This document shows positions 1,617 through 41,185 of a stretch of 64,000 nt of DNA, piece by piece. A program made the translations under genes and the position numbers. The notes beneath the pieces are model-generated. The model did no database searches and was not told the DNA's origin. It saw only the letters and a list, made by a program, of their open reading frames with translations. The DNA lies in sequence record MH791411.1, one strand, 5' to 3'. Source of the stretch: Escherichia phage Ecwhy_1. The number at the start of each line of letters is the position of its first letter. Position 1 is the stretch's first letter.

Positions 1617-2390
1617 TTATGTATTAATTTTATGACCCAATTTATATGATAGCCAATGGATATCACTAATTCCTTCTTGTGAACCCAAGTGTAGTGTAAG
1701 TAGTTCATTCCATGTCAAAACTGTATTATTGTCAGGTGTATGAGCATTGTATCGAGCCATACCATCGGCACATGGGTCCAACGCGAGTATTTGATTACCC
1801 GTAATAGTTTTTGCTGGTGCTTCTAACCCCATCAATGAGCGTATATCATCCGATAGTATTTGAAATGCGGATACTGCTGCAACATTTAATGCAGTAATAT
1901 TATCTTTGATAAAATCAACCGTTAAAGTTTGATAATATGAAATATAGTTCTTATCAATATAATCCCATTTATCTTTAATGAAATCAAGTGTTAGTTTTTG
2001 GTATCTGGAAATTTCCGACATTACACCATCTCTAAATTCAACAAGGTCATTCCATTTGTCTTGAATAAAATCTTGTGTTAGTTTTTGATACTTAGCAACA
2101 GTATCCAGAAAGTTATCTTTGAAGTCATTCCATTTTTCCATAATCAATTCCATTGGCATGACTACATATTGTGCAATAACATTTTTATCAAACCACTCCC
2201 ACTTTTCTTTAAGAAAATCAGTTGTCATTGTTTGATATCGAGCTAACATATTAGGGTTCATTTTATCAAAATGTTTTTTTATAAAGTCTTGTGGGAGTTT
2301 TTGATAGCGAACAATCATATCCATATCAAGATCATCCCAAAATTCTTCTATGAATCCAATATCTATTGGACTACGATAGTCAACTTTCAT
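1617..2390 (-). CDS. tandem-repeat protein of unknown function (six ~33-aa repeats, consensus around YQKLTxDFIKDKWD)
   Basis: 257 aa; repeats visible directly in translation (RYQKLPQDFIKKHFD / RYQTMTTDFLKEKWE / KYQKLTQDFIQDKWN / RYQKLTLDFIKDKWD / YYQTLTVDFIKDNIT); sits between nrdA and nrdB. Confidence 0.6.
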   Translation of the reverse strand: MKVDYRSPIDIGFIEEFWDDLDMDMIVRYQKLPQDFIKKHFDKMNPNMLARYQTMTTDFLKEKWEWFDKNVIAQYVVMPMELIMEKWNDFKDNFLDTVAKYQKLTQDFIQDKWNDLVEFRDGVMSEISRYQKLTLDFIKDKWDYIDKNYISYYQTLTVDFIKDNITALNVAAVSAFQILSDDIRSLMGLEAPAKTITGNQILALDPCADGMARYNAHTPDNNTVLTWNELLTLHLGSQEGISDIHWLSYKLGHKINT

Positions 2391-2435
2391 TATATCACTC
2401 CTATGAAATAAATCCCGCCGAAGCGGGATCTTTAA

Positions 2436-4754
2436 TTAGATCTTACAACTATCACAATCACCTTCATCTAAGTCAGGTAGTGTAGGTAACACAAACTGTC
2501 CTGATTCTGGTTTTGCAGCTTCTTTTAGTACTTTCTCAACATCAACTTCATCAGAACCATCATTAGTATTATGATAGTACAGATTTTTCAAACCAACTTT
2601 GTATGCATACATTAGTTCAGTTAGTAGTGTTGACATTGGCAACTTACCATCAGGGAAGTGTGCTGGATTGTAACTGGTATTCACACTAATACTTTGGTCA
2701 ATGTATTTCTGAAGAACACCACAGATTTGTAGATAACCGATGTTATCTTTCTGATCCCATAGTAAATCATATTTGTTTTTCAACTTATTGATTTCAGGAA
2801 CGACTTGTTTAAGAATACCATCTTTAGATAGTTTCTTGGTTACAAGTGAACGAGGTTTCTCAATACCATTAGTACTGTTACTGATTTGTGCACTAGTTTC
2901 TGCTGGCATCAGTGCCATAGTTGTTGCATTACGAATACCATATTGTTTGATATCCTGACGCAATGTTTCCCAATCTTGTTTTAGTTCAGGAGATACCAAC
3001 GCATCAATATCTTCTTTATAGGTATCAATTGGTAGAATACCTTTAGCATATTTTAGTGTGTCAAAACCTTCACACTTACCTTTCTCTTTAGCAAGCTGTA
3101 CGGAAGATTTAATTAGATAATAAGACCATGCTTCAGCCCACTCGTTAACTGTTTCCAATGCAGCTTCATTGTAACGCAAACCACGTTTAGCAAGGAAGTA
3201 TGCAAAGTTAATGATACCAACACCTAATGGGCGGTACATTTTTGTTGCACGATCTGCATGAACTACTGGGTAGTCTTGATAATCCAATAGAGAATCAAGA
3301 GCACGTACAGAAAGATCACAAGCAGTTTCCATATCTTCTGGTCGGTCAAAGTTACCCCAGTTGATTGCACTCAAAGTACATAGACTAATCAAACCTTCAC
3401 CAGTATTAATATCATCAAATGGCACAGATGGTAGTGCGATTTCTTGACACAAGTTGGATTGTTCAATTGGTGCAATTGATTCAATAAAGGTTGAGTGTGT
3501 GTTTGCATGGTCAATGTTTTGAATATAGATACGACCAGTTTCTGCACGCTCAGTCATTAGAGTACTGAATACTTCAACAGCAGATACAGATTTTTTACGA
3601 ATGCTTGGATCAGCTTCATACTTCTTGTACAGCTTTTCAAATTCTTTTTGGTTAGAACAGAATGCTTCATATAGCCCAGGAACTTCATTAGGACTAAAGA
3701 ATGTAATATTCTTGCCATCAACTAAACGTTGATATAGTGTTTTGTTCACTTGGAAACAATAGTCAAGTTGTCGAACACGGTTGAACTCAGTACCTTTGTT
3801 ATTTTTCAGTACTACAAGATTGTCAAATTCCAAATGCCACAATGGGAAGTGGACGGTTGCTGCACCACCACGCACACCACCTTGAGAGCAGCTTTTAACG
3901 GTCTTAGCAGTTGATGCAATGAAAGGAATCAAACCAGTGTGTACTGCATCACCTGAACGAATCTCGGAGTCCAGAGCACGAATGCGGCCCATATTGATAC
4001 CAAGTCCAGCTTTACGGGAAATATAACGTAGTATAGCGTGGTTAGAAGAACCAATACTATCTAGACTATCTCCAACGTTTAGTACTACACAAGAACTAAA
4101 CTGACGTGTATTGGTACGTAGACCAGCCATGATAGGAGTCGGGAGACTGATATCAAAGTTACTAACAGCATCATAAAACTTCTTAACATAAGACATACGT
4201 ACAGAGCGATCATACTCCATAAAGATGATTGCTGCAATGGTCATATATGCCATTTGTGGAGTTTCGTAGATTTTCTTAGTTACGCGATTCTTATATAGAT
4301 ACTTTCCTTCCCACTGACGCATAGCAACATAAGTGAATTTATCATCACGTTTATGTTTGATGTAACGTCCAAGCTCTTCAATTTCTTGAAGTGTGTATTT
4401 CTCAAGAATTTCTGGATCATAGATTTTTGTATCTACCATTTCTTGTAGATGTGCAGTGTATTTGATAGGGTCATAGTCGCCATACACTTGCTTACGGATA
4501 CTATAATTTAGTAAGCGACCAGCAACGTATTGGTAGTTTGGTGTATCTTCAGAAATAAGTTCTGCTGCTGATTTAATCAGAATATCATGAATAGTATTTG
4601 TTTCAATACCTTCAAAGAATTGAAGTTGTGCACGAATTTCAATTTCGGAAACAGATACACCACTCAGCCCTTCGGCAGCAAAAAATAAAATTTGATGGAT
4701 CTTATCCAAAGATAACGGTTCTTTTTTTCCATTACGCTTGGTTACGTTAATCAT
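2436..4754 (-). CDS. nrdA: ribonucleotide reductase class Ia large (alpha) subunit
   Basis: 772 aa; N-terminal ATP-cone (VTKRNGKKEPLSLDKI), active-site region CSQGGVRGGAATVHFPLWHLEF, C-terminal Cys pair (DCDSC). Confidence 0.92.
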   Translation of the reverse strand: MINVTKRNGKKEPLSLDKIHQILFFAAEGLSGVSVSEIEIRAQLQFFEGIETNTIHDILIKSAAELISEDTPNYQYVAGRLLNYSIRKQVYGDYDPIKYTAHLQEMVDTKIYDPEILEKYTLQEIEELGRYIKHKRDDKFTYVAMRQWEGKYLYKNRVTKKIYETPQMAYMTIAAIIFMEYDRSVRMSYVKKFYDAVSNFDISLPTPIMAGLRTNTRQFSSCVVLNVGDSLDSIGSSNHAILRYISRKAGLGINMGRIRALDSEIRSGDAVHTGLIPFIASTAKTVKSCSQGGVRGGAATVHFPLWHLEFDNLVVLKNNKGTEFNRVRQLDYCFQVNKTLYQRLVDGKNITFFSPNEVPGLYEAFCSNQKEFEKLYKKYEADPSIRKKSVSAVEVFSTLMTERAETGRIYIQNIDHANTHSTFIESIAPIEQSNLCQEIALPSVPFDDINTGEGLISLCTLSAINWGNFDRPEDMETACDLSVRALDSLLDYQDYPVVHADRATKMYRPLGVGIINFAYFLAKRGLRYNEAALETVNEWAEAWSYYLIKSSVQLAKEKGKCEGFDTLKYAKGILPIDTYKEDIDALVSPELKQDWETLRQDIKQYGIRNATTMALMPAETSAQISNSTNGIEKPRSLVTKKLSKDGILKQVVPEINKLKNKYDLLWDQKDNIGYLQICGVLQKYIDQSISVNTSYNPAHFPDGKLPMSTLLTELMYAYKVGLKNLYYHNTNDGSDEVDVEKVLKEAAKPESGQFVLPTLPDLDEGDCDSCKI

Positions 4755-32546: not shown

Positions 32547-35500
32547 TTACCAGGTGAAGAATCCGTTATTAACGGCTGCTGTGCTTTTCTCATGAATACC
32601 AATATCCATATCCAGAATACCAAAAATGTTTTCTAATTTTTTAGTTAGAACTATTTCTTCCATTTTCTCTGTATCAAATGGTAGTTCTAAGAACCATTCA
32701 GGTAGATATTCCACACAGTCAATTGGGTAACCTACTGCTTTGATACCCATCGGGTTATCTTTTAAGTTACATACAATTACTTTTGTACCGTCAGTTACTT
32801 CAGGTACAGTTTTGTCATCATATACTTCACGTAGACGGTTCCATTGAATACCTGCTAATACGTGACCAACTTTACATTTACCAGAAACTTCATATTCTGC
32901 TTCTAAGTTGGTATAGTTCTTAACAGTTTTCGGTGAACCCTTTTCGTGTACAGGCATGTCTTTAAATACCTCTTTAAAGTCACGTACACGCTGTTTAAGT
33001 TGAGCTTCAGACTCACCCACCAGCAATGCAATTAGAGTCTCTTCTAGGAAGTTCTGGATGTATTTTGGCGTATCTGAACGTTTAATTTCAAGACCCATCG
33101 CTTTAATTTCACCAGGCTTTCCATCAACATCTTTACGGAAACCATCTTCCCAGTACTTGAGAATTGCATAACGCTTTTTCTTCAGGAATAGACCACGGGA
33201 ACCGACCATCTCTAGGTCTGCACCAACAATCTTACCTTTCTCAATACCAGTATTGAACATTTCGTTCATGAATGAAGGGAATGATTCACCAACTTCATCA
33301 CCGATTTTGATATACATGTCAACGATTTCTTCTTTCGAAAGATTATATGGAATACCTTGTTCTTTCAGATAATGAGTTACACTGAAGTAAACAGAGTCAG
33401 TATCACCGTAAATCACAGAGCCACCTTGGTGATTATAAACGCCAGTAGTGATTTCATTGATACGGCTTGCCATATGTTTAGTCATAGAACGACCAGTTAA
33501 GGTAACGGACTGACCTAAACGTTTATCAAAGAAACGTGAACCTTTGTTCAATAGTGCACCATATAGACTGTTTAGAAGAATCTTACGAATTTGCTGGTTC
33601 TGTTTCCAGAATGCACTTTGCTGTTTGAAGTAATTCTTATCTTCCGTTGCACAGAAAATACGACCATCTTTCAGTACTAAACCATTTTCCACAATGAGTT
33701 TTGCAACTTCTTCCCATTGACCTTTACCAATAGCAATACGTAATAGATAAACAGGATCATTGTCATGTAAGTTTGTACGGAACATTGTACCACTTGTGTA
33801 GTTAGATAGCAAAGGTTCAACCTTCTCAGAACCATTGAATTCCCACCCATCACTATACATGTGTTTGTAGTCGATTACCATTTTTTGTTGTGCTTTACGC
33901 TCAGAATACCATTGAGTAAGAATATCTGGAATTACACCATACTTAGACTTATCAAAAAGTGTTCCGTTAGCACTTAGTACAATAGTACTGTCTTCAGCAA
34001 AGATAATATCATACAATTCTTTACCAGTTGCATTGAACGAACTACCATCTTCTAAATCAACAATCAAAGTTTTGTCAGATTTTTCATGAACCATTGTAAA
34101 TTCTACAGCAGCAAATAAACCATGCCATGCAGCGGTCCAATCAGGTTCAAACGCTTTAGATTTGGATTTAGCTTTTTGCTCTTGTACTTTAGCAGCAAGA
34201 TATGCATCAGTGTAGTCTTGACGAAGTTGTCCAAGAATACATTCAGTACTCATGCCAAGTGTACGTAGTACAGTTGGATACAATGAGTTAAAGTCTGTAC
34301 ATCCCAAATCGCTAACAAGGCCAAGAACTGGATCTTGAACCCATGCACCAGCAGCTTTTGCACTGATTTTCTCATCTTCTTCATCACCTTCTTCACCATA
34401 GTACTCCATCTCTGGATCTAACTCAATATCATCTTTCGGTGCTTTGTTAAAAACAACTTCACCGCGACTGTGAGCAAGGTTGATGATAGCAGTGTCGATT
34501 AGTGCAACCGAACCCATTGTAGTACTAATTAGTACACATTCTTTATGAGCAAGACGGTTGTGCAGGTTGATAAAGTCACATTTAGCATCAATTTTCTTTA
34601 GAAGAATACTATCCTGCTTAGAATAACGCAAGAATGTAATGTAATCTTCACGGTATAGTTTATCCAATGAACCTTCATAGGATACTTTGTTTTCTTTAGT
34701 TACCTTTTCAGCAATATAATCTAGTTTGTACGACTGTTCAACTTGACCAGCATGTTTCTTATAAAGAGCAAGATAGTCTAAGTGTACGCGTCCAATAAGA
34801 TCATATGTTACTACAGTTTTACCAAAGTTATCAGCTTCACGAGCATTTGGTTTTTTATTCCACAAGCACCAACGAGCAGTAGTTGCTTCGTTGAAGATTT
34901 TCTTGGTACGGTTTACCATATATGGAATATCAAAGAATTCACTGTTCCAACCTGAAATTACATCAGAGTCATCGATTAGACTAAAGAACTCCATAAACAT
35001 TTCTTTCTCATCCGTATAAAGGATGACAGTACTGTTAGGGTCGTTAGTTTCTTCGTTTAACTGACGAACAATATCTTGTGCTTCGTACATTTCCATATCA
35101 GTTGGTGGCAAAGTCAGTACATAATCCTTACCAGTCCATGATTGATATAGAGAAATTGCAGTTACGCGGTTGAATGGATCTGATGGTGGAGCATAACCAA
35201 ACTTCTTATGGAAGTCGGTTTCGATATCGAAAAATGCTACGTTCAAATCCGGCGAACCTTTACCCATGTATTCTCTAGCCAACGTTTTGAAGGTAATGTT
35301 GCAATCACTTTCAAAAATACGTAGACCTTCATTTTTATGTTGCTCAACGCTTTTATTCATCTGTGATTGAGTTTCAAACTCCAAATGCTTTGCGTTGGTT
35401 CCATAAATTGTTTTGTGTTCACCAGTAGGAGATTCAACATAATATTCATATACTGGGTCCAACTGACGTAGAATACGTTTACCGTTTTTACGTTCTGCTA

Positions 35501-35552
35501 CGTGCAAAATATCACCAGTACGTTTACGTTCCATATAAGCATCGATATACAT
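32547..35552 (-). CDS. DNA polymerase, family B (T4 gp43-like) with 3'-5' exonuclease domain
   Basis: 1001 aa; Exo I FFDIETD, Pol motif A DFNSLYPTV, motif C YGDTDSVY. Confidence 0.93.
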   Translation of the reverse strand: MYIDAYMERKRTGDILHVAERKNGKRILRQLDPVYEYYVESPTGEHKTIYGTNAKHLEFETQSQMNKSVEQHKNEGLRIFESDCNITFKTLAREYMGKGSPDLNVAFFDIETDFHKKFGYAPPSDPFNRVTAISLYQSWTGKDYVLTLPPTDMEMYEAQDIVRQLNEETNDPNSTVILYTDEKEMFMEFFSLIDDSDVISGWNSEFFDIPYMVNRTKKIFNEATTARWCLWNKKPNAREADNFGKTVVTYDLIGRVHLDYLALYKKHAGQVEQSYKLDYIAEKVTKENKVSYEGSLDKLYREDYITFLRYSKQDSILLKKIDAKCDFINLHNRLAHKECVLISTTMGSVALIDTAIINLAHSRGEVVFNKAPKDDIELDPEMEYYGEEGDEEDEKISAKAAGAWVQDPVLGLVSDLGCTDFNSLYPTVLRTLGMSTECILGQLRQDYTDAYLAAKVQEQKAKSKSKAFEPDWTAAWHGLFAAVEFTMVHEKSDKTLIVDLEDGSSFNATGKELYDIIFAEDSTIVLSANGTLFDKSKYGVIPDILTQWYSERKAQQKMVIDYKHMYSDGWEFNGSEKVEPLLSNYTSGTMFRTNLHDNDPVYLLRIAIGKGQWEEVAKLIVENGLVLKDGRIFCATEDKNYFKQQSAFWKQNQQIRKILLNSLYGALLNKGSRFFDKRLGQSVTLTGRSMTKHMASRINEITTGVYNHQGGSVIYGDTDSVYFSVTHYLKEQGIPYNLSKEEIVDMYIKIGDEVGESFPSFMNEMFNTGIEKGKIVGADLEMVGSRGLFLKKKRYAILKYWEDGFRKDVDGKPGEIKAMGLEIKRSDTPKYIQNFLEETLIALLVGESEAQLKQRVRDFKEVFKDMPVHEKGSPKTVKNYTNLEAEYEVSGKCKVGHVLAGIQWNRLREVYDDKTVPEVTDGTKVIVCNLKDNPMGIKAVGYPIDCVEYLPEWFLELPFDTEKMEEIVLTKKLENIFGILDMDIGIHEKSTAAVNNGFFTW

Positions 35553-36040: not shown

Positions 36041-36559
36041 TTAAACAGGTTTAACAGGGAACGAAAACTTCTTCTTACTAAATTCAGATGTTGTTAGAGA
36101 TGATAGCTCAAGAACATATGCTTTCAACTTAGGAAACAGTTCTATTTCATAATCAGTTGCTACCTCAAGATCTATCGCCATCTTAATGTTATTCAACTCA
36201 TTAATTGCTACGGTTCTTAATTCTTGGTGCTCAGATGATAGACGTTTGATCTTTTCATCAGTAGATTCAACATAATCAGAAATTTTACTTCCATCATAGA
36301 TTTTACCAACTACTTCATCTTCATCACCATCATGCTCCAACTCAGAAACACTGTATCCATACGGTACTAACAATGTTACATCATATGATGCTTGTGCAAT
36401 ATAACCATCATCAGAGTACTGAACTTTCAAAGTATCTTGTCTGAATTCGTTTTGACAATCATACCAGTCAACACCCTCATCTGACAATAGATAAAGAACA
36501 TTATCTCCATGTTTCTTTTCTACTGGGATATATTTTTTGAAATGTGTATATGTTTTCAT
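36041..36559 (-). CDS. putative tail fibre assembly protein/chaperone (by position)
   Basis: 172 aa, translationally coupled immediately downstream of tail fibre gene. Confidence 0.35.
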   Translation of the reverse strand: MKTYTHFKKYIPVEKKHGDNVLYLLSDEGVDWYDCQNEFRQDTLKVQYSDDGYIAQASYDVTLLVPYGYSVSELEHDGDEDEVVGKIYDGSKISDYVESTDEKIKRLSSEHQELRTVAINELNNIKMAIDLEVATDYEIELFPKLKAYVLELSSLTTSEFSKKKFSFPVKPV

Positions 36560-36560
36560 A

Positions 36561-38189
36561 TTAAGACTCCACTACTACGTTAGTCCATACACCATTGACT
36601 AATTTTTGTGTATATCTCCAACTATAACCTTCAACGTGTGTACCTGAACTACCATTTACTGAAATAAACAACCCATCCAGTGTAGCACCTTCTGGTGCAT
36701 AGATCCAAGAAGAATCAGGAACACTTCGCGTAGATGTTCTTTTACTTAAACGAACATCTTGTACAGCACCTAGTGTTAAAGTTACGTTACCGTTTGCATC
36801 AGCGTTGTTACCGTTAATAGATCTGACGATGTTTTTACTAGCAACAGTTGCTATGTTTCCAGAAATAGACAATGATGCACCAGTTACTGATGGAGCATAA
36901 AGTACACCAGAAGAGTTAATTGTAACTTCAGAACCACCATTACTTCTCAAACGTAATGTATTTGTTGATGAACTGTGATAAATTGCTGCACGTTCAGTAG
37001 TTCCTGCCGCGTTACGGAAGTAAAGTACTAATGAAGTATCATTCGAACGAATTGTTGCACTGTTTGCGATACTTAATGAACCAGACATTGTATCACCAGT
37101 TTTCAGTACATAACGGGTGTTTGCAACTTTTTCACTCAATGCAACGTTAGACTCAGCAATGTTATATAAGTATGCCACATTAAAGTGTGGTACGTCAATA
37201 TTGCTAATTCCGTGGGTATGTGCTTGTCCACTACCAACGGTATTGGTTGAACCACTGAAACTATGCACGTGATCAGGTGCTTCGTTAATGTTATTAATTA
37301 CAGTTGGGATTCCGTTGTCGTTACTGGATGTTAACGCATTAAGACCACTTCTGTCCATACCTTTTAGTGCTTGACTATGACCATGACGACCAGCAGCACC
37401 AGTAGTTCCACTGAAACTAAATGAGTGCGGTGGAAGTTGAGCAATTGATATCGCAGTCCCACTAATTGATGCACTACTTGCAATCACACTATCAGTTTTA
37501 GTTACGCCTGATGTGGTAATGCCTTTCAAGTATGCTTCTTGGTTAAGATTTGGAACTTGTTTTGTGATTGTACCATTTTCACCAACCCATTGCCACCACA
37601 TTCCATCAGCAAAACACCAACCATCAGAAGTTTTCCACGGAGAACCTTGTGAACCATTACGACCACTTTGACCATTGGTCACACCAGACATCTGTTCACG
37701 AATACTAGCAACAGTTTGTCCAGAAGTCAATGAGTACTGGGTAATTGCACCAGGCTTCATTGAAGTATAAAGACCTGTTGGGCCAGTACCGCTACTTGAT
37801 GGAATAGGGAATACGATATTTAAATTCGTACCACTAATGCTCGCACTTGGAACAGCACTACTACTATATGTTACTGTTTCAACTTTTAAATTCAGTTTAC
37901 GGTTCACTTCATCGAGTGAAATACGGATTGGTTCAAGAATTGTATCAGTATCGTATACTGCAATCCAACTTGTCCCGTTGTGGTATTTTAACACCAACTC
38001 ATTTCTATCAAATACCATAGCACCTTGCTCACCTGCTGGCAATGCCTGTACTGGTAAAATGACAGAAGATGAATTAAAACGAATAGGTCTTGGATTAGTT
38101 GGTGTACCACCAAGCACTATTAGTTCTAAAGATCCATTAGCACCAGTACTAGTCATAGTATCCAGTGGGTTATTAAAACTTATGCTCAT
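36561..38189 (-). CDS. tail fibre protein with HxH metal-binding-type motifs (T4 gp12/gp37-like distal region)
   Basis: 542 aa, Ser/Thr/Gly-rich; motifs RHGHS, PDHVHSF, AHTHGI resemble HxH repeats of T-even fibre tips. Confidence 0.65.
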   Translation of the reverse strand: MSISFNNPLDTMTSTGANGSLELIVLGGTPTNPRPIRFNSSSVILPVQALPAGEQGAMVFDRNELVLKYHNGTSWIAVYDTDTILEPIRISLDEVNRKLNLKVETVTYSSSAVPSASISGTNLNIVFPIPSSSGTGPTGLYTSMKPGAITQYSLTSGQTVASIREQMSGVTNGQSGRNGSQGSPWKTSDGWCFADGMWWQWVGENGTITKQVPNLNQEAYLKGITTSGVTKTDSVIASSASISGTAISIAQLPPHSFSFSGTTGAAGRHGHSQALKGMDRSGLNALTSSNDNGIPTVINNINEAPDHVHSFSGSTNTVGSGQAHTHGISNIDVPHFNVAYLYNIAESNVALSEKVANTRYVLKTGDTMSGSLSIANSATIRSNDTSLVLYFRNAAGTTERAAIYHSSSTNTLRLRSNGGSEVTINSSGVLYAPSVTGASLSISGNIATVASKNIVRSINGNNADANGNVTLTLGAVQDVRLSKRTSTRSVPDSSWIYAPEGATLDGLFISVNGSSGTHVEGYSWRYTQKLVNGVWTNVVVES

Positions 38190-38230
38190 GTATAAATCCC
38201 TTTAATGATTAATATATACTATATTTATTA

Positions 38231-38539
38231 CTATAGCAAGTCGTTTTCCATATCGTCAAGAACAGAATCGACGATGTTCGCTGCTATCTTCTTAGGCATC
38301 TTGAACCACTCGGTGTTAGGTTGCCTTACTGCGTTCATTTGTTTTAGTCTTTTGTGAATTTCTTTCTCTGCTAAACGTGCATCTTCAAAGTGTACTTCAT
38401 GGTATACCACAAAATCTCTAAAAGGTGTAGCAGTTTGATATGTCCTTAAACGTTCTGTCATTTCAGATTTACTGGTAAATCCTATCTTAACATAATCAGG
38501 CCACGCATCATTTACTATAACATAACATATCTGTGACAT
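38231..38539 (-). CDS. T5orf172-domain protein (GIY-YIG clan, homing-endonuclease-like)
   Basis: ICYVIVNDAWPDYVKIGFTSKSEMTERLRTY matches T5orf172-type core; preferred start MSQICYV with GGAGA upstream. Confidence 0.5.
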   Translation of the reverse strand: MSQICYVIVNDAWPDYVKIGFTSKSEMTERLRTYQTATPFRDFVVYHEVHFEDARLAEKEIHKRLKQMNAVRQPNTEWFKMPKKIAANIVDSVLDDMENDLL

Positions 38540-38578
38540 AGAAAATATCTCCATCAGTAATATGAAGATATTTATTAA

Positions 38579-38938
38579 TCAAGTAATTCGGAAATTTACC
38601 CCAGCATCAATTAGGCGTTGGAATGGGTTTTGTGGCTCGAATTCAGAAGGAGTTTTTGAAATGTTCAGTACTGGAGCATCAGCATGTAACTTTGACATAC
38701 GTTCTTTGTACTTATCTAAGTATTCTTCATATAACATATCTTCAGTGTTACTATCAAGTATGTCTTCAATAAATGAATCAATACTATAGTCCAGTCTATC
38801 ATCATTATAATACAAAGTTTCACTAGCTTCATCATAACCAACTAAAGTCCCGTATGGAACGTTAATCTCAATTTTTGAGTACTGACTCTTTAAGTACTCT
38901 TCTTTCTTAAAAATGTATACAGTTAACATCCGTGTCAA
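38579..38938 (-). CDS. hypothetical protein (119 aa)
   Basis: ORF between the two T5orf172 genes. Confidence 0.4.
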   Translation of the reverse strand: MTRMLTVYIFKKEEYLKSQYSKIEINVPYGTLVGYDEASETLYYNDDRLDYSIDSFIEDILDSNTEDMLYEEYLDKYKERMSKLHADAPVLNISKTPSEFEPQNPFQRLIDAGVNFRIT

Positions 38939-38952
38939 CTCCTTATGGTTGT

Positions 38953-39876
38953 TTACTTAAAAGTATTTACGATTTCCAAAACACTTTCAAGATACTTAGC
39001 ATCAAAAGTTTCAGTAAATCCTGATGGTAACTCTTCAGTACTTACAACACCACTTTCAATGTATTGCTTGATGAACTTTTCCAATAATAATGGTTTGTTA
39101 CCATCCTCAAAGTAACGTTCTACCAGTACAGTGTGTTCAAAATCAGAATCACGGCTTTGTTCATGAATTCGCCTCTTCATGTCACCAGTAATTCCGTATT
39201 TGTAAACGACTTTTGAGTTATTAGATAGTTTTTGTACATAGAAATATCCAGGCTTTGATGGTTGATAACCATACTCACCACATGATGGACATCCTCTTCC
39301 TGCCATATGAGATTTGGGTATTTGTTTAAAGACACCATGTTCAGGACAAATAATATCCACATGTTCATCACTAGTCTTGTAATCCACCAAGCTATAATCA
39401 TACTTATGGTTATGGATAGGCGACACAAGTTCAATGAAACGTTCAGTACTTCTTCCACCTTTACCAGAACATATTCCACAACTAGTTTTTCCTTTTAATA
39501 ATGTTGCGGCTGATACTTCCCAATCATGAACATCATTTGGATCGTTGTGACATGTTACCGTCACTTTCCCATTACAATCACGTTGTCTTTTGTAGATAGT
39601 TTTTTCAAATGACAATGTTGGATGAATTGTTTTTACTTTCTCTATGAACGTTTCAGTTGTGTATGCTGTATTTTTTTGGCAAATATTACATCCCTTTGCA
39701 GTAGATCTTACAATTTGCATAGGAGTGATTTTGAAATAATGACCACCTTCCACACAATAAAGTTCAACCTGTTTATGTGCATTTATGTATACCATTTTAT
39801 CAAACAAATAAACCCCAGTGCCATATTTTTCATTCACCGTATTGATAAATTTTTCTTCATTTGGATTCATTGTCAT
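38953..39876 (-). CDS. zinc-ribbon repeat + C-terminal T5orf172-domain protein (freestanding homing-endonuclease-like)
   Basis: 307 aa; three repeats with Cys/His clusters (e.g. KYDYSLVDYK...VDIICPEHGVFKQIPKSHMAGRGCPSCG), then YFYVQKLSNNSKVVYKYGITGDMKRRIHEQ. Confidence 0.55.
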   Translation of the reverse strand: MTMNPNEEKFINTVNEKYGTGVYLFDKMVYINAHKQVELYCVEGGHYFKITPMQIVRSTAKGCNICQKNTAYTTETFIEKVKTIHPTLSFEKTIYKRQRDCNGKVTVTCHNDPNDVHDWEVSAATLLKGKTSCGICSGKGGRSTERFIELVSPIHNHKYDYSLVDYKTSDEHVDIICPEHGVFKQIPKSHMAGRGCPSCGEYGYQPSKPGYFYVQKLSNNSKVVYKYGITGDMKRRIHEQSRDSDFEHTVLVERYFEDGNKPLLLEKFIKQYIESGVVSTEELPSGFTETFDAKYLESVLEIVNTFK

Positions 39877-39904
39877 TTCTCTTCTTCATTTATAATGTAC
39901 GCGT

Positions 39905-39933
39905 ATTATTACACAAAAAATGTGACATGTCAA
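39905..39933 (-). promoter_or_regulatory. sigma70-like promoter (TTGACA - ~17 nt - TAATAAT) upstream of the T5orf172 gene
   Basis: Read by eye on minus strand between MCP terminator and ATG at 39876. Confidence 0.4.
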
Positions 39934-39947
39934 CACAAAAAAGAAAA

Positions 39948-39965
39948 GGGACTCCGAAGAGTCCC
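39948..39965. terminator. bidirectional rho-independent terminator (GGGACTC-cgaa-GAGTCCC)
   Basis: Perfect 7-bp stem; T-runs on both strands; directly downstream of the MCP stop. Confidence 0.65.
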
Positions 39966-40009
39966 TATTGTTTTTAATTTCTTGATTAAATCTTTTAAAT
40001 CGATTACAA

Positions 40010-41185
40010 TTACATGAAAGTAACGTTTTTGATAGCGATTTTGCTGTAGTAGTCAGCAGCGTTACCAAGAGAAGAAGTACTATCAGTCAATTGTACATAA
40101 CCATACCTGGTAAGGAAAGTTGTGACCAATTCCCCAGTGTTAGGGTCCATTACAGTACCGGAAGCCATTAGTGGGATGTATGGGCAATAGAACACACCAG
40201 CATCAGTTTCAGCATTACCTTTATAACCAATCAAAATGTCCTCGACATCTGAGGCATACGTATCGACAAAAATACGCATGGTGCTGTTTAGAGTACCAAC
40301 GAATTTAACGTTAGTTGGAGCTTCGAAAGTACCTTCAGTAGTACGTGCAAAACTAGAAGTAGTTGCAGACTGTAGAATGGTTAGAGCGGTTGGAGAAACA
40401 ACAGCCCAGTTCGCAGCACCACGTTTGGTACGACGAGCAACTTCGTTCGCTTGACGGTTGATTAGGGTAGCTAGAGCAGCGTGCTCGTCACCAACGAAGG
40501 TCGCAACACCAGTAACTTTAGATTGGTCATAAGTTACAGCAGCAGCACCAGGTAGTGCACGTAGACGGCTTAGTAGCTCTTGGTCGATTTCAACGGTAAC
40601 TTCTTGAGCGATTGCAGCCATTAGTTCAGCTTCAACATCGATACCATGTTGGGATTGTGCATCTTGTGCAGATTCAACAGTCCAACGTGCAGATAGACGA
40701 CGAGATTTCGCTTCAACAGTTTCACGTAGGATACGGATGTTAACGCGACGACCCATAGTACCTTCTAGTTGGCTAGTAGGAGCAGCTTGTGGGTTGCTGT
40801 TGTCTGCGTTTAGGTCACCAGTATAAGACTTAGCGATTTTGTATGGAGAAAGCATTTCTTCACCAGCGATAACACCAGGAGCGTTGTCAGCATATTGAAC
40901 ACGTAGGGTGTGGATCTGACCAACTGGGCCAGTCATTGGCTGAACACCGATGATTTCGTTAGCGATTACGGTTGGCATAACACGACGCATAATTGGTAGA
41001 ATCACTTTGTTTAGAGTAGCGATGTTACCAGCGGTGGTTGCACCAGAAGTAGCAGATTCGTTTAGCATTAGTTTACGATGGTTATCAAGTACGGTTTCCA
41101 TTACGGACTTACGAGTACCTTGTAGACCTTCAACTAGTTTCTCTTTAACTGCTACCCATTTGGATTCATTTAGTAGTTGTGACAT
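40010..41185 (-). CDS. major capsid protein (T4 gp23/gp24 family)
   Basis: 391 aa; HK97-fold gp23-like, N-terminal propeptide-like region; late promoter + AAGGAG upstream; strong terminator downstream. Confidence 0.85.
   Translation of the reverse strand: MSQLLNESKWVAVKEKLVEGLQGTRKSVMETVLDNHRKLMLNESATSGATTAGNIATLNKVILPIMRRVMPTVIANEIIGVQPMTGPVGQIHTLRVQYADNAPGVIAGEEMLSPYKIAKSYTGDLNADNSNPQAAPTSQLEGTMGRRVNIRILRETVEAKSRRLSARWTVESAQDAQSQHGIDVEAELMAAIAQEVTVEIDQELLSRLRALPGAAAVTYDQSKVTGVATFVGDEHAALATLINRQANEVARRTKRGAANWAVVSPTALTILQSATTSSFARTTEGTFEAPTNVKFVGTLNSTMRIFVDTYASDVEDILIGYKGNAETDAGVFYCPYIPLMASGTVMDPNTGELVTTFLTRYGYVQLTDSTSSLGNAADYYSKIAIKNVTFM

What the first reader, a model, noticed from the sequence alone, without database searches (positions are those of the whole stretch)
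38231..39933. Accessory island of two T5orf172 homing-endonuclease-like genes between tail fibre and major capsid genes
Both ORFs carry a T5orf172-type core (YVxVND...KIGFT / VVYKYGIT...RR); the larger also has three zinc-ribbon-like repeats. The larger gene has its own sigma70-like promoter (TTGACA-N17-TAATAAT) placed right after the MCP terminator, typical of freestanding homing endonuclease genes inserted between conserved structural genes.
Basis: partly seen in the sequence, partly recalled or inferred. Interest (0 to 1): 0.5.

Follow-up and report, generated by a model that had tools for sequence, protein, structure and literature searches.

The report
Homing-endonuclease slot beside jumbo-phage capsid gene
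The larger gene is an ordinary selfish, mobile nuclease gene (zinc-finger DNA-binding modules plus a T5orf172 cutting domain) that comes and goes at one fixed spot just after the capsid gene of a jumbo E. coli phage, whereas the smaller nuclease-like gene and an overlooked third gene are stable residents of this phage group.

Summary
The window comes from an Asteriusvirus-type jumbo coliphage (PBECO4/121Q group). The interval holds three minus-strand genes, not two.

- **Small gene (38231-38554):** a stand-alone T5orf172 protein, Pfam E=3e-13.
- **Middle gene (38579-38929):**
- **Large gene (38953-39876):** a 307-aa protein with three treble-clef Zn modules (DUF4379/DUF723/CapR type) and a C-terminal T5orf172/GIY-YIG-fold domain. 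It has a near-consensus sigma70 promoter right after the capsid (MCP) terminator.

Only the large gene is accessory. fEgEco12, with flanks 100%/99.6% identical, has 39 bp in place of window 38930-39938. Across 25 GenBank relatives the slot is empty or holds at least 6 different nuclease alleles, including module-swapped chimeras. These alleles cross-cut the phage backgrounds.

The small gene and the ORFan sit at this locus in every related locus that includes it, so they are not a recent insertion.

An extra result: an 86-nt, purely synonymous hypervariable patch in the MCP 3' end (40055-40140) tracks the nuclease's N-terminal DNA-binding type (Mantel r=0.73, p=1e-4) and not the MCP background. 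I read this as a co-converted, probably cleavage-resistant target region; that is inference.

The family is already described (Barth, Dunham & Seed 2023), so this is a new member of a known kind. Interest is modest.

The parts
38231..38554 (-). Stand-alone T5orf172 (GIY-YIG clan) protein, 107 aa as the longest ORF. Relatives annotate 102 aa starting at the ATG at 38539. It is a conserved resident gene, not part of the mobile cassette.
   Evidence: Pfam PF10544 E=3e-13 and PHROG 15085 E=3e-56. Found in 33 related loci as 14 distinct sequences, with the motifs CYV, VK[IV]GFT, RL, AExE and EW[FY]K invariant. PADLOC gives only the candidate family PDC-S57, E=1e-15.
38579..38929 (-). 116-aa acidic ORFan (pI 4.4, no Cys) from the ATG at 38929. 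The mechanical ORF extends to a TTG at 38938. It is a conserved resident.
   Evidence: PHROG 15724 E=1e-52, with no Pfam, NCBIfam or PADLOC hit. Only 13 homologue clusters exist, all from this phage group. It is 28-100% identical across the related loci. The AF2 model has pLDDT 53 and is unusable.
38930..39938 (-). The mobile cassette: 1009 bp that are replaced by 39 bp in fEgEco12. It contains the RBS spacer, the nuclease gene and its promoter.
   Evidence: BLAST and alignment against fEgEco12 and PBECO4. The left flank is 100% identical over 830 bp and the right flank 99.6% over 262 bp.
38953..39876 (-). 307-aa T5orf172-type homing-endonuclease-like protein. Zn module 1 is aa 1-70 (39667-39876), Zn module 2 is aa 71-140 (39457-39666), Zn module 3 is aa 141-205 (39262-39456), and the T5orf172 nuclease domain is aa 206-307 (38956-39261).
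39905..39933 (-). Sigma70-type promoter of the cassette: TTGACA-N17-AATAAT with an extended TG.
   Evidence: 11/12 match. It is 100% conserved in WPEC5, slurp01 and G17. Most other occupied slots carry a 10-12/12 promoter at the same place, while the TH47, SHEFM2K, EC.P1 and Ec-M-J slots score only 8-9/12. The empty sites reach only 8/12.
39947..39966 (-). Intrinsic terminator of the MCP gene (8-bp stem, 5 GC pairs, T-run). It marks the right boundary of the slot.
   Evidence: Terminator scan. The hairpin is conserved in all relatives.
40055..40140 (-). Cluster A: a synonymous hypervariable patch in the last third of the MCP gene. It co-varies with the N-terminal (DNA-binding) type of the slot nuclease. 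I treat it as a candidate target, immunity or co-conversion region.
   Evidence: Nucleotide diversity is 0.22-0.23 here, against roughly 0.045 elsewhere in the gene. Synonymous differences per codon are 0.44-0.62 against a gene mean of 0.149, at similar codon degeneracy. There are 0 amino-acid changes, and Ser TCT<->AGT family switches occur. Mantel r=0.73, p=1e-4 against HEG N-terminal distance, and r=0.01 against the rest of MCP.
40205..40305 (-). Cluster B: a second synonymous hypervariable patch in MCP. The window's haplotype is unique. It is not linked to HEG type and remains unexplained.

Best explanation
The 307-aa gene at 38953-39876 is a freestanding homing endonuclease gene (HEG) of the T5orf172 family. 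It occupies a recurrent insertion slot between the MCP terminator and the next gene in Asteriusvirus-type jumbo phages.

Proposed mechanism:
1. Early in infection, host RNA polymerase transcribes the gene from its own sigma70 promoter (inferred).
2. The three basic treble-clef Zn modules read a specific DNA sequence, and the C-terminal T5orf172 (GIY-YIG-fold) domain cuts nearby (inferred from the ICP1 relatives Odn and CapR).
3. In a mixed infection the enzyme cuts co-infecting genomes that carry a sensitive allele.
4. Recombinational repair from the HEG-bearing genome copies the cassette, together with about 200 bp of the adjacent MCP 3' end. The outcome of this step is shown comparatively, but the process is inferred.
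5. The most likely recognition or cleavage region is the synonymously recoded patch at 40055-40140 in the MCP gene, which travels with the nuclease's DNA-binding type (inferred).

The small T5orf172 gene and the 116-aa ORFan downstream are vertically inherited residents. The cassette's promoter probably also drives them, because no terminator lies between.
For: **Presence/absence with conserved flanks.** Window 38930-39938 corresponds to 39 bp in fEgEco12, with flanks 100% and 99.6% identical. PBECO4, CMSTMSU and SD-6_S16 are also empty. 11 of 12 Munch-like IMG/VR loci are empty.

**Turnover and discordance with flanks.** Several phages have 99.7-100% identical MCP proteins and 99-100% identical small and middle-gene proteins, and are 98.8-99.7% identical to the window over 25 kb. 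Among them the slot is:
- empty;
- the same allele at 99% (WPEC5);
- a chimera (Turkey3: C-terminal half 98% DNA identity, N-terminal half 57%);
- 121Q-type (66% aa);
- an unrelated 332-aa T5orf172 allele (TH47).

**Cross-background transfers carrying about 200 bp of MCP.**

| Pair | Cluster A differences | HEG N-terminal distance | Rest-of-MCP differences |
|---|---|---|---|
| BF17 vs A4 | 1 nt | 0% | 49 nt |
| Turkey3 vs CRJP21 | 2 nt | 2% | 54 nt |
| window vs slurp01/G17 | 0 nt | 7% | 52 nt |

All.

**Nuclease domain.** Tyr213, Arg236, Glu266 and Glu289 are invariant. The fold is GIY-YIG-like. The domain is homologous to the T5orf172 family.

**Promoters.** Most occupied slots carry a near-consensus sigma70 promoter (10-12/12), with 8-9/12 in TH47, SHEFM2K, EC.P1 and Ec-M-J. 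Empty slots lack one.

**Family context.**
- T5orf172 HEGs with repeated CapR/DUF723/DUF4379 Zn fingers cluster near capsid, terminase and RNR genes and shuffle domains (PMC10448857).
- The T5orf172 protein Odn cuts DNA in vitro, and E180A abolishes this (PMC8263062).
- The CapR Zn-finger cysteines are needed for sequence-specific DNA binding (PMC8096241).
Against: - No cleavage or homing has been shown for any member at this slot. Barth et al. themselves note that related nucleases need not actively home.
- The direct Pfam T5orf172 match of the large protein is below threshold.
- The link between cluster A and HEG type could be plain physical linkage within recombination blocks.
- The link has exceptions: TH47 and SHEFM2K share a HEG (85% aa) but differ at 17 of 86 nt, and EC.P1 and UE-S1 share cluster A (1 nt) but carry unrelated slot genes.
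- fEgEco12 is empty yet carries the window-type cluster A.
- Promoter matches are consensus matches only.
Confidence: 0.75

Rival explanations
1. The large gene is a competition or anti-parasite nuclease rather than a selfish homing element. In this reading it is kept because it degrades co-infecting phages or capsid-stealing satellites that carry a sensitive capsid-gene sequence (marker exclusion), as ICP1's Odn destroys the PLE satellite.
For: - Odn is a domesticated T5orf172 nuclease with a swapped DNA-binding domain (PMC8263062).
- Barth et al. report HEG domains engaged in phage-satellite conflicts, including E. coli satellites that carry capsid genes.
- The candidate target lies in the MCP gene, and the patch is recoded without protein change.
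Against: - The gene is dispensable: at least 5 of the 25 GenBank relatives and 11 of the 12 IMG/VR relatives lack it.
- Alleles replace each other at exactly one slot, carrying adjacent flank tracts, which is the homing signature.
- No satellite target was identified here.
- The two roles are not mutually exclusive.
Confidence: 0.12
2. The cassette is a non-mobile accessory gene. In this reading the patchy distribution comes from repeated deletions and ordinary homologous recombination among co-infecting jumbo phages, and the nuclease plays no causal part. Cluster A is hypervariable only because it is linked to anciently diverged cassette lineages.
For: - No biochemical evidence of cleavage exists.
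- Invariant segments (39939-40054 and 40141-40204) flanking the variable parts offer natural crossover points.
- The association has the exceptions listed above.
Against: - The empty sites carry an ancestral-type 39-47 bp spacer shared between distant phages (fEgEco12, PBECO4), not deletion scars.
- The last 15 MCP codons and the terminator lie between the HEG and cluster A, yet are nearly invariant (synonymous difference 0.07 per codon against 0.44-0.62 in cluster A). Uniform old divergence of a linked block does not fit this.
- A 116-bp invariant spacer should have broken the linkage unless a HEG paired with a foreign target is selected against.
- At least 6 unrelated or distantly related nuclease genes, and almost nothing else, occupy this one slot. 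The only non-nuclease ORF seen there is the second, 207-aa gene in SE_PL.
Confidence: 0.1
3. The large protein acts mainly as a DNA-binding regulator of capsid or late-gene expression, like the I-TevI autorepressor or CapR, with the nuclease domain inactive or secondary.
For: - CapR-type Zn modules repress a capsid operon in the ICP1/PLE system (PMC8096241).
- The gene sits next to the MCP gene, and 6 of 32 homologues hit the Pfam CapR domain.
Against: - All catalytic-type residues of the T5orf172 domain are invariant across 32 homologues.
- A regulator of an essential gene would not be expected to be absent or swapped among 99.5%-identical phages.
- The gene lies downstream of the MCP gene, not at its promoter.
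Confidence: 0.03

Closest known systems
T5orf172-family homing endonuclease genes of vibriophage ICP1 and other phages (Barth, Dunham & Seed 2023, PMC10448857), including the characterised relative Odn/Gp88 (PMC8263062)
   Same: - The architecture matches: N-terminal repeated Zn-finger DNA-binding modules (CapR/DUF723/DUF4379) plus a C-terminal T5orf172 domain.
- It is a freestanding gene next to an essential structural gene (capsid).
- Module shuffling occurs between alleles.
- tblastn finds the family in 948 phage records, 414 of them Vibrio phages.
   Different: - The host lineage differs (Asteriusvirus jumbo coliphages, not mentioned in that paper).
- Sequence identity to non-Asteriusvirus members is only about 30-37%.
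- Here one slot can be followed through empty, occupied and chimeric states in near-clonal genomes, with an associated recoded patch in the capsid gene.
- No activity data exist for this member.
Freestanding GIY-YIG 'Seg' endonucleases of phage T4 (e.g. SegG at gene 32; Liu et al. 2003, cited as ref. 11 in PMC10448857; otherwise from established knowledge)
   Same: - Both are intergenic, promoter-bearing nuclease genes.
- They cut the HEG-less allele within a neighbouring conserved gene, at a distance from the insertion point.
- They spread by repair with co-conversion of flanking markers.
   Different: - The nuclease is the T5orf172 subfamily rather than canonical GIY-YIG. The second Tyr is replaced (YKYGIT), and the first-helix Tyr/His was not examined here.
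- DNA binding is by tandem treble-clef Zn modules, rather than the different DNA-binding domains I recall for Seg and I-TevI proteins (not examined here).
- Cleavage and homing are unproven here.
CapR, the PLE satellite's capsid-operon repressor (Netter et al. 2021, PMC8096241)
   Same: The Zn-finger module type is homologous: Pfam CapR PF21817 hits 6 of 32 homologues and the Turkey5 slot allele at E=1e-10. Both are functionally connected to a capsid gene region.
   Different: CapR lacks the nuclease domain and binds the capsid promoter. The protein here keeps an intact T5orf172 domain and lies downstream of the capsid gene.

Membership tests
T5orf172 domain (Pfam PF10544, GIY-YIG clan) | Match to the family HMM above the curated cutoff - small ORF | tested here: met
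   50.6 bits against a cutoff of 20, E=3e-13, covering 99 of 101 profile positions.
T5orf172 domain (Pfam PF10544, GIY-YIG clan) | Match to the family HMM above the curated cutoff - large ORF | tested here: not met
   T5orf172 scores 14.5 bits against 20, and MUG113 17.3 against 22.3. Membership rests on indirect evidence: 9 of 32 full-length homologues match the HMMs at E<=0.01 (best E=9.5e-9), and hhalign to the small-ORF family gives 87% probability, E=3.9e-6.
T5orf172 domain (Pfam PF10544, GIY-YIG clan) | Conserved catalytic-type residues (Tyr in strand 1, Arg, Glu; Glu equivalent to Odn E180 / I-TevI E75) | tested here: met
   In the large ORF, Y213, K226/G228, R236, E266 and E289 are invariant in 32 sequences. 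In the small ORF, CYV, VKIGFT, RL, AEKE and EWF are invariant in 14 distinct sequences. Equivalence to the catalytic Glu is by alignment only (PMC8263062).
T5orf172 domain (Pfam PF10544, GIY-YIG clan) | GIY-YIG alpha/beta fold | tested here: met
T5orf172 domain (Pfam PF10544, GIY-YIG clan) | Endonuclease activity | not testable with these tools
   Known only for the relative Odn (PMC8263062).
Freestanding homing endonuclease gene | Presence/absence polymorphism at one site in closely related genomes with conserved flanks | tested here: met
   fEgEco12 has flanks 100% and 99.6% identical, with 39 bp in place of 1009 bp. Four clearly empty slots plus one probable (PHA46) among the 25 GenBank relatives.
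Freestanding homing endonuclease gene | Phylogeny of the element discordant with the host genome (horizontal spread) | tested here: met
   HEG types cross-cut the two MCP backgrounds. Mantel r between the rest of MCP and the HEG N-terminus is 0.08 (not significant). Three cross-background pairs share both HEG and flank tract.
Freestanding homing endonuclease gene | Own expression signals | tested here: met
   The promoter matches 11/12 with an extended -10. Most other occupied slots carry 10-12/12 promoters and four carry only 8-9/12; empty slots have none. This is consensus evidence only, with no transcript data.
Freestanding homing endonuclease gene | Target-site polymorphism or co-conversion of flanking markers linked to the element | tested here: inconclusive
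   Cluster A (40055-40140) is 3-5x more diverse at synonymous sites and correlates with the HEG N-terminal type (r=0.73, p=1e-4). Linkage is a confounder, and there are exceptions (TH47/SHEFM2K; EC.P1/UE-S1).
Freestanding homing endonuclease gene | Site-specific cleavage of the HEG-less allele and super-Mendelian inheritance | not testable with these tools
   This needs nuclease assays and phage crosses.
CapR / DUF723 / DUF4379 treble-clef Zn-finger DNA-binding modules | HMM match above cutoff and conserved Zn ligands in each repeat | tested here: met
   DUF4379 scores 26.4 bits against 24.5. Among 32 homologues, 27 match DUF4379, 15 match DUF723 and 6 match CapR. The ligand cysteines of all three repeats are invariant. 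DNA binding itself is untested; it is known for CapR (PMC8096241).

The most novel reading that the evidence does not exclude
The slot downstream of the jumbo-phage capsid gene may be an arena where at least 6 nuclease lineages compete, each tied to its own synonymously recoded version of an 86-nt stretch of the capsid gene. The stretch is presumed to be target-resistant. If so, the matched pairs of Zn-module set and recoded DNA patch, together with the natural module-swap chimeras (Turkey3/CRJP21, E9.1), form a natural data set. It could be used to read the DNA-recognition rules of CapR/DUF723/DUF4379 treble-clef modules. It would also show nuclease-driven recoding of an essential structural gene. 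Separately, the conserved stand-alone T5orf172 protein and its acidic neighbour could be a domesticated nuclease with a partner or inhibitor.
Probability: 0.3. Interest if true: 0.55.

Novelty: new member of a known kind. Interest (0 to 1): 0.33.

Why it matters
Taken alone, this is a routine annotation result. The large gene is a T5orf172 homing-endonuclease-type gene of a family already described in ICP1, T5-like and other phages, and GenBank relatives already label it 'endonuclease'.

The useful extra is that Asteriusvirus genomes are nearly clonal around this slot. Empty, occupied, replaced and chimeric states can therefore be compared base by base. That comparison points to a specific 86-nt candidate target or immunity region in the capsid gene.

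This gives a directly testable system for two questions: whether T5orf172 HEGs really home, and how their tandem Zn modules read DNA.

It also corrects the annotation of the small T5orf172 gene. vB_Ec-M-J labels it 'homing endonuclease', but it behaves as a conserved resident gene.

Tried and rejected
- **Paralogues in the window:** phmmer of the three proteins against all ORFs of at least 50 aa in the 64-kb window found no further copy.
- **Middle ORF:** there are no Pfam, NCBIfam or PADLOC hits. Only 13 close homologue clusters exist. The AF2 model has pLDDT 53, so I ran no fold search. Its function stays unknown.
- **Solved structures by sequence:** nothing significant was found for either T5orf172 protein (best E 0.26 and 0.89).
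- **Defence-system reading:** PADLOC hits only the small ORF, and only to the candidate families PDC-S57 and PD-Lambda-1, via the shared T5orf172 domain. The large ORF has no hit. I did not pursue this.
- **RNA elements:** Rfam over 37800-40400 gives only a sub-threshold MicX match on the terminator (19 bits against 75). There is no intron-like RNA.
- **IMG/VR scan with the MCP:** the closest hits were only 92% identical or less (Munch-like). This was useful for showing that the small and middle genes are conserved and most slots empty, but not for fine haplotype analysis.
- **Cluster B as the HEG-linked patch:** rejected. It does not correlate with HEG type (r=0.04) but does correlate with MCP background (r=0.42).
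- **Codon degeneracy as the cause of cluster A:** rejected. Mean degeneracy is 3.6-4.2 in the patch against 3.0-4.4 in neighbouring invariant bins.
- **Simple deletion as the origin of empty sites:** rejected. Empty sites share an ancestral-type spacer across distant phages.
Full report
**What is in the interval**

ORF listing and translation show three consecutive minus-strand genes between the tail-fibre gene (36561-38189; PHROG 13229, E=9e-247) and the gp23-type major capsid protein gene (MCP; 40010-41185; Pfam Gp23, E=9.5e-90).

- **38231-38554, 107 aa.** Pfam T5orf172 E=3e-13 and MUG113 E=1e-12.
- **38579-38929, 116 aa from the ATG.** It matches only PHROG 15724 (unknown function).
- **38953-39876, 307 aa.** PHROG 681 'endonuclease' E=2e-63, and Pfam DUF4379 'treble clef zinc finger' just above its cutoff. 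T5orf172 and MUG113 are only sub-threshold (14.5 and 17.3 bits).

It lies immediately after the MCP terminator hairpin at 39966-39947.

**Is the large protein really a T5orf172/GIY-YIG-type nuclease?**

The direct Pfam match fails the cutoff, so I tested this in other ways.

- An alignment with 31 homologues has these invariant positions:
  - the Zn ligands of three repeats (C41/C63/C66, C109/C133/C136, C177/C196/C199);
  - Y213, K226, G228, R236, E266, G286 and E289 in the C-terminal domain.
- 9 of the 32 sequences match T5orf172 and MUG113 on their own (best E-values 9.5e-9 and 1.1e-9). 27 match DUF4379, 15 match DUF723 and 6 match the CapR homology domain.
- A profile-profile comparison of the C-terminal domain family with the small-ORF family gives 87% probability, E=3.9e-6. 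It aligns YKYGIT with VKIGFT, the Arg, and TETF with TEWF.
- An AlphaFold2 model (mean pLDDT 90.3) shows three helix + beta-hairpin modules and a beta-beta-alpha-beta-alpha-alpha C-terminal domain.
- No solved structure is detectable by sequence.

The GIY-YIG-clan assignment therefore holds for both ORFs, with the stated weakness for the large one.

**Where the window comes from, and what relatives carry**

The region matches Asteriusvirus jumbo coliphages (PBECO4/121Q group). Over window 1-25000, eight phages are 98.8-99.7% identical. I fetched the locus from 25 GenBank relatives and 80 IMG/VR loci.

- **The small T5orf172 gene and the 116-aa gene.**
  - They are present at the same place in all 25 GenBank relatives; in PHA46 the middle gene is only a fragment.
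  - They are also present in all 12 Munch-like IMG/VR loci that include this part (MCP 85-92% identical).
  - They are not detected in loci with MCP identity of 72% or less.
  - The small protein is 77-100% identical with all motif residues invariant.
  - These two genes are conserved residents, not an inserted island.
- **The large gene.**
  - It is absent in fEgEco12, PBECO4, CMSTMSU, SD-6_S16 and apparently PHA46, and in 11 of the 12 IMG/VR loci.
  - Against fEgEco12 the boundaries are exact. Window 38100-38929 is 100% identical and 39939-40200 is 99.6% identical. The 1009 bp between them correspond to a 39-bp spacer.
  - That spacer resembles the one in the distant PBECO4, so the empty state looks ancestral rather than a deletion scar.

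**A hot slot with allele turnover and module swapping**

The slot contents:

| Slot content | Phages |
|---|---|
| Window-type, 306-307 aa | window, WPEC5, slurp01, G17, E9.1 |
| 121Q-type, 365-383 aa, with a fourth N-terminal Zn repeat | 121Q, WPEC3, Ec-M-J, BF17, A4 |
| 309-aa type | EC.P1 |
| 332-aa T5orf172 type (Pfam E=1e-5) | TH47, SHEFM2K |
| 408-aa type with a CapR domain | Turkey5 |
| 364-aa type | EJP2 |
| Unrelated 532-552-aa protein (DUF7487 plus weak restriction-endonuclease-like match) | ph0011, UE-S1 |
| Two genes | SE_PL |

- Turkey3 and CRJP21 are chimeras. They combine 121Q-type N-terminal modules with the window-type Zn module 3 and nuclease domain (97-100% aa).
- The DNA breakpoint is near 39492, in the conserved LLKGKTxCGxCSGKGGR linker.
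- E9.1 has swapped Zn module 3 only (47% identity there, against 89-90% for the rest).
- Most occupied slots carry a near-consensus sigma70 promoter right after the terminator (12/12 in five phages); TH47, SHEFM2K, EC.P1 and Ec-M-J score only 8-9/12. Empty slots reach only 8/12.

**Discordance with the flanks**

The rest of the MCP gene defines two main backgrounds about 52 nt apart. The HEG types cross-cut them. Within the window's near-clonal group the MCP proteins are 99.7-100% identical and the small and middle-gene proteins 99-100% identical. In that group the slot is empty, the same allele, a chimera, 121Q-type, EC.P1-type or TH47-type.

**A recoded patch in the capsid gene**

Nearly all nucleotide differences in the last 330 nt of MCP among Asteriusvirus phages fall into two patches. 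Cluster A is 40055-40140 and cluster B is 40205-40305. There are 0-1 amino-acid changes, and Ser TCT<->AGT codon-family switches occur.

- Nucleotide diversity is 0.22-0.23 in cluster A and 0.14 in cluster B, against roughly 0.045 elsewhere in the gene.
- Synonymous differences per codon are 0.44-0.62 in cluster A, against a gene mean of 0.149, at similar codon degeneracy.
- The segments 40013-40042 and 40133-40222 are almost invariant.
- Cluster A distance correlates with HEG N-terminal (DNA-binding) distance (Mantel r=0.73, p=1e-4). The correlation with the nuclease domain is weaker (r=0.47). There is no correlation with the rest of MCP (r=0.01).
- Cluster B does the opposite: r=0.04 against the HEG and r=0.42 against the MCP background.

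Three independent cross-background pairs share the HEG and cluster A but not the rest of MCP:

| Pair | Cluster A differences | Rest-of-MCP differences |
|---|---|---|
| BF17 / A4 | 1 nt | 49 nt |
| Turkey3 / CRJP21 | 2 nt | 54 nt |
| window / slurp01 or G17 | 0 nt | 52 nt |

I read this as cassette transfer with about 200 bp of co-converted flank. Because the patch is far more diverged than the invariant DNA lying between it and the HEG, I also read it as a probable target or immunity region. This is inference, for three reasons:
- Linkage is a confounder.
- TH47/SHEFM2K and EC.P1/UE-S1 are exceptions.
- fEgEco12 is an empty slot carrying the window-type patch. That is the viable 'resistant, HEG-less' recombinant one would expect.

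**Comparison with what is known**

- Barth, Dunham & Seed (2023, PMC10448857) describe exactly this protein family:
  - They are T5orf172 HEGs with repeated CapR/DUF723/DUF4379 Zn-finger modules.
  - They are enriched near capsid, terminase and RNR genes, shuffle domains, and sit at boundaries of genetic exchange.
  - They do not mention Asteriusvirus, 121Q, PBECO4 or RaK2.
- The T5orf172 protein Odn of ICP1 cleaves DNA in vitro, and E180A abolishes this (PMC8263062).
- The CapR Zn-finger cysteines are required for sequence-specific binding (PMC8096241).
- Genome papers on fEgEco12 and Sharanji do not discuss this locus.
- tblastn finds the family in 948 phage records, 414 of them Vibrio phages.

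**Verdict**

The sequence observation is largely right but incomplete: there are three genes, not two.

The large gene is a new member of a known kind of element. The slot dynamics and the capsid-gene patch are a tidy, testable addition rather than a new principle.

The functions of the conserved stand-alone T5orf172 protein and its acidic neighbour remain open. My best guess is a domesticated small nuclease, possibly descended from an old HEG, with low confidence.

Noticed in passing
window 40205-40305 (MCP codons ~295-327): A second purely synonymous hypervariable patch (cluster B). The window's haplotype differs by at least 6 nt from every relative, including WPEC5, which has the same HEG and an otherwise identical MCP. 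The patch tracks the MCP background (r=0.42), not the slot allele. It may be the target of another nuclease or an older conversion tract.
   Followed up: partly
L103 (ph0011) 2374-3972 and L104 (UE-S1) 2360-4018; same slot as window 38930-39938: An unrelated 532-552-aa protein occupies the same slot. It has DUF7487 plus a weak REase_MTES_1575/Vsr-like motif (IEFNGEYWH), so at least two nuclease superfamilies use this insertion site. UE-S1 nevertheless shares the cluster A haplotype with EC.P1.
   Followed up: partly
L011 (fENko-Kae01), L013 (EJP2), L012 (SE_PL), L010 (Turkey5): MCP terminator: In these phages the loop of the MCP terminator hairpin reads TTGACG. It serves as the -35 element of an 11/12 sigma70 promoter (TATAAT 17 nt downstream) for the slot gene. 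Terminator and promoter therefore overlap.
   Followed up: no
window 39877-39904 (-): The leader between the -10 element and the HEG start contains TATAAATG, a 7/8 match to the T4-type late promoter TATAAATA. The same motif is in E9.1 and Turkey5. The empty-slot spacers share TCTAAATACA upstream of the 116-aa gene. These are possible phage-specific promoter motifs.
   Followed up: no
L005 (WPEC5) 1089-2798, L006 (Turkey3) 1077-2786, L010 (Turkey5), L013 (EJP2): These relatives have a longer 569-572-aa tail fibre. WPEC5, Turkey3 and Turkey5 lack the separate tail-fibre assembly gene found at window 36041-36559; EJP2 keeps one. The distal part of the fibre is replaced, which looks like a host-range module swap next to the studied locus.
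   Followed up: no
window 38231-38929 (-): The conserved stand-alone T5orf172 protein (pI 5.6) is preceded, 24 nt upstream, by an acidic 116-aa ORFan (pI 4.4, no Cys). The ORFan evolves much faster (28-30% identity against 77% for the small protein, in Munch-like phages). The layout resembles a split HEG or a nuclease with a partner or inhibitor, but nothing tested supports either.
   Followed up: partly
L007 (CMSTMSU, MH494197.1): The record (flagged UNVERIFIED) shows the MCP, tail-fibre and 116-aa genes broken into many small ORFs by frameshifts. This is probably sequencing error. I excluded it from the diversity statistics.
   Followed up: no
window 32547-35552 (-) and 36041-36559 (-): The neighbouring genes are a 1001-aa family-B DNA polymerase (annotated as such in relatives) and a lambda-gpK-type tail-fibre assembly protein (Pfam Caudo_TAP, E=6e-9). 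Replication and structural genes are therefore interleaved here.
   Followed up: no
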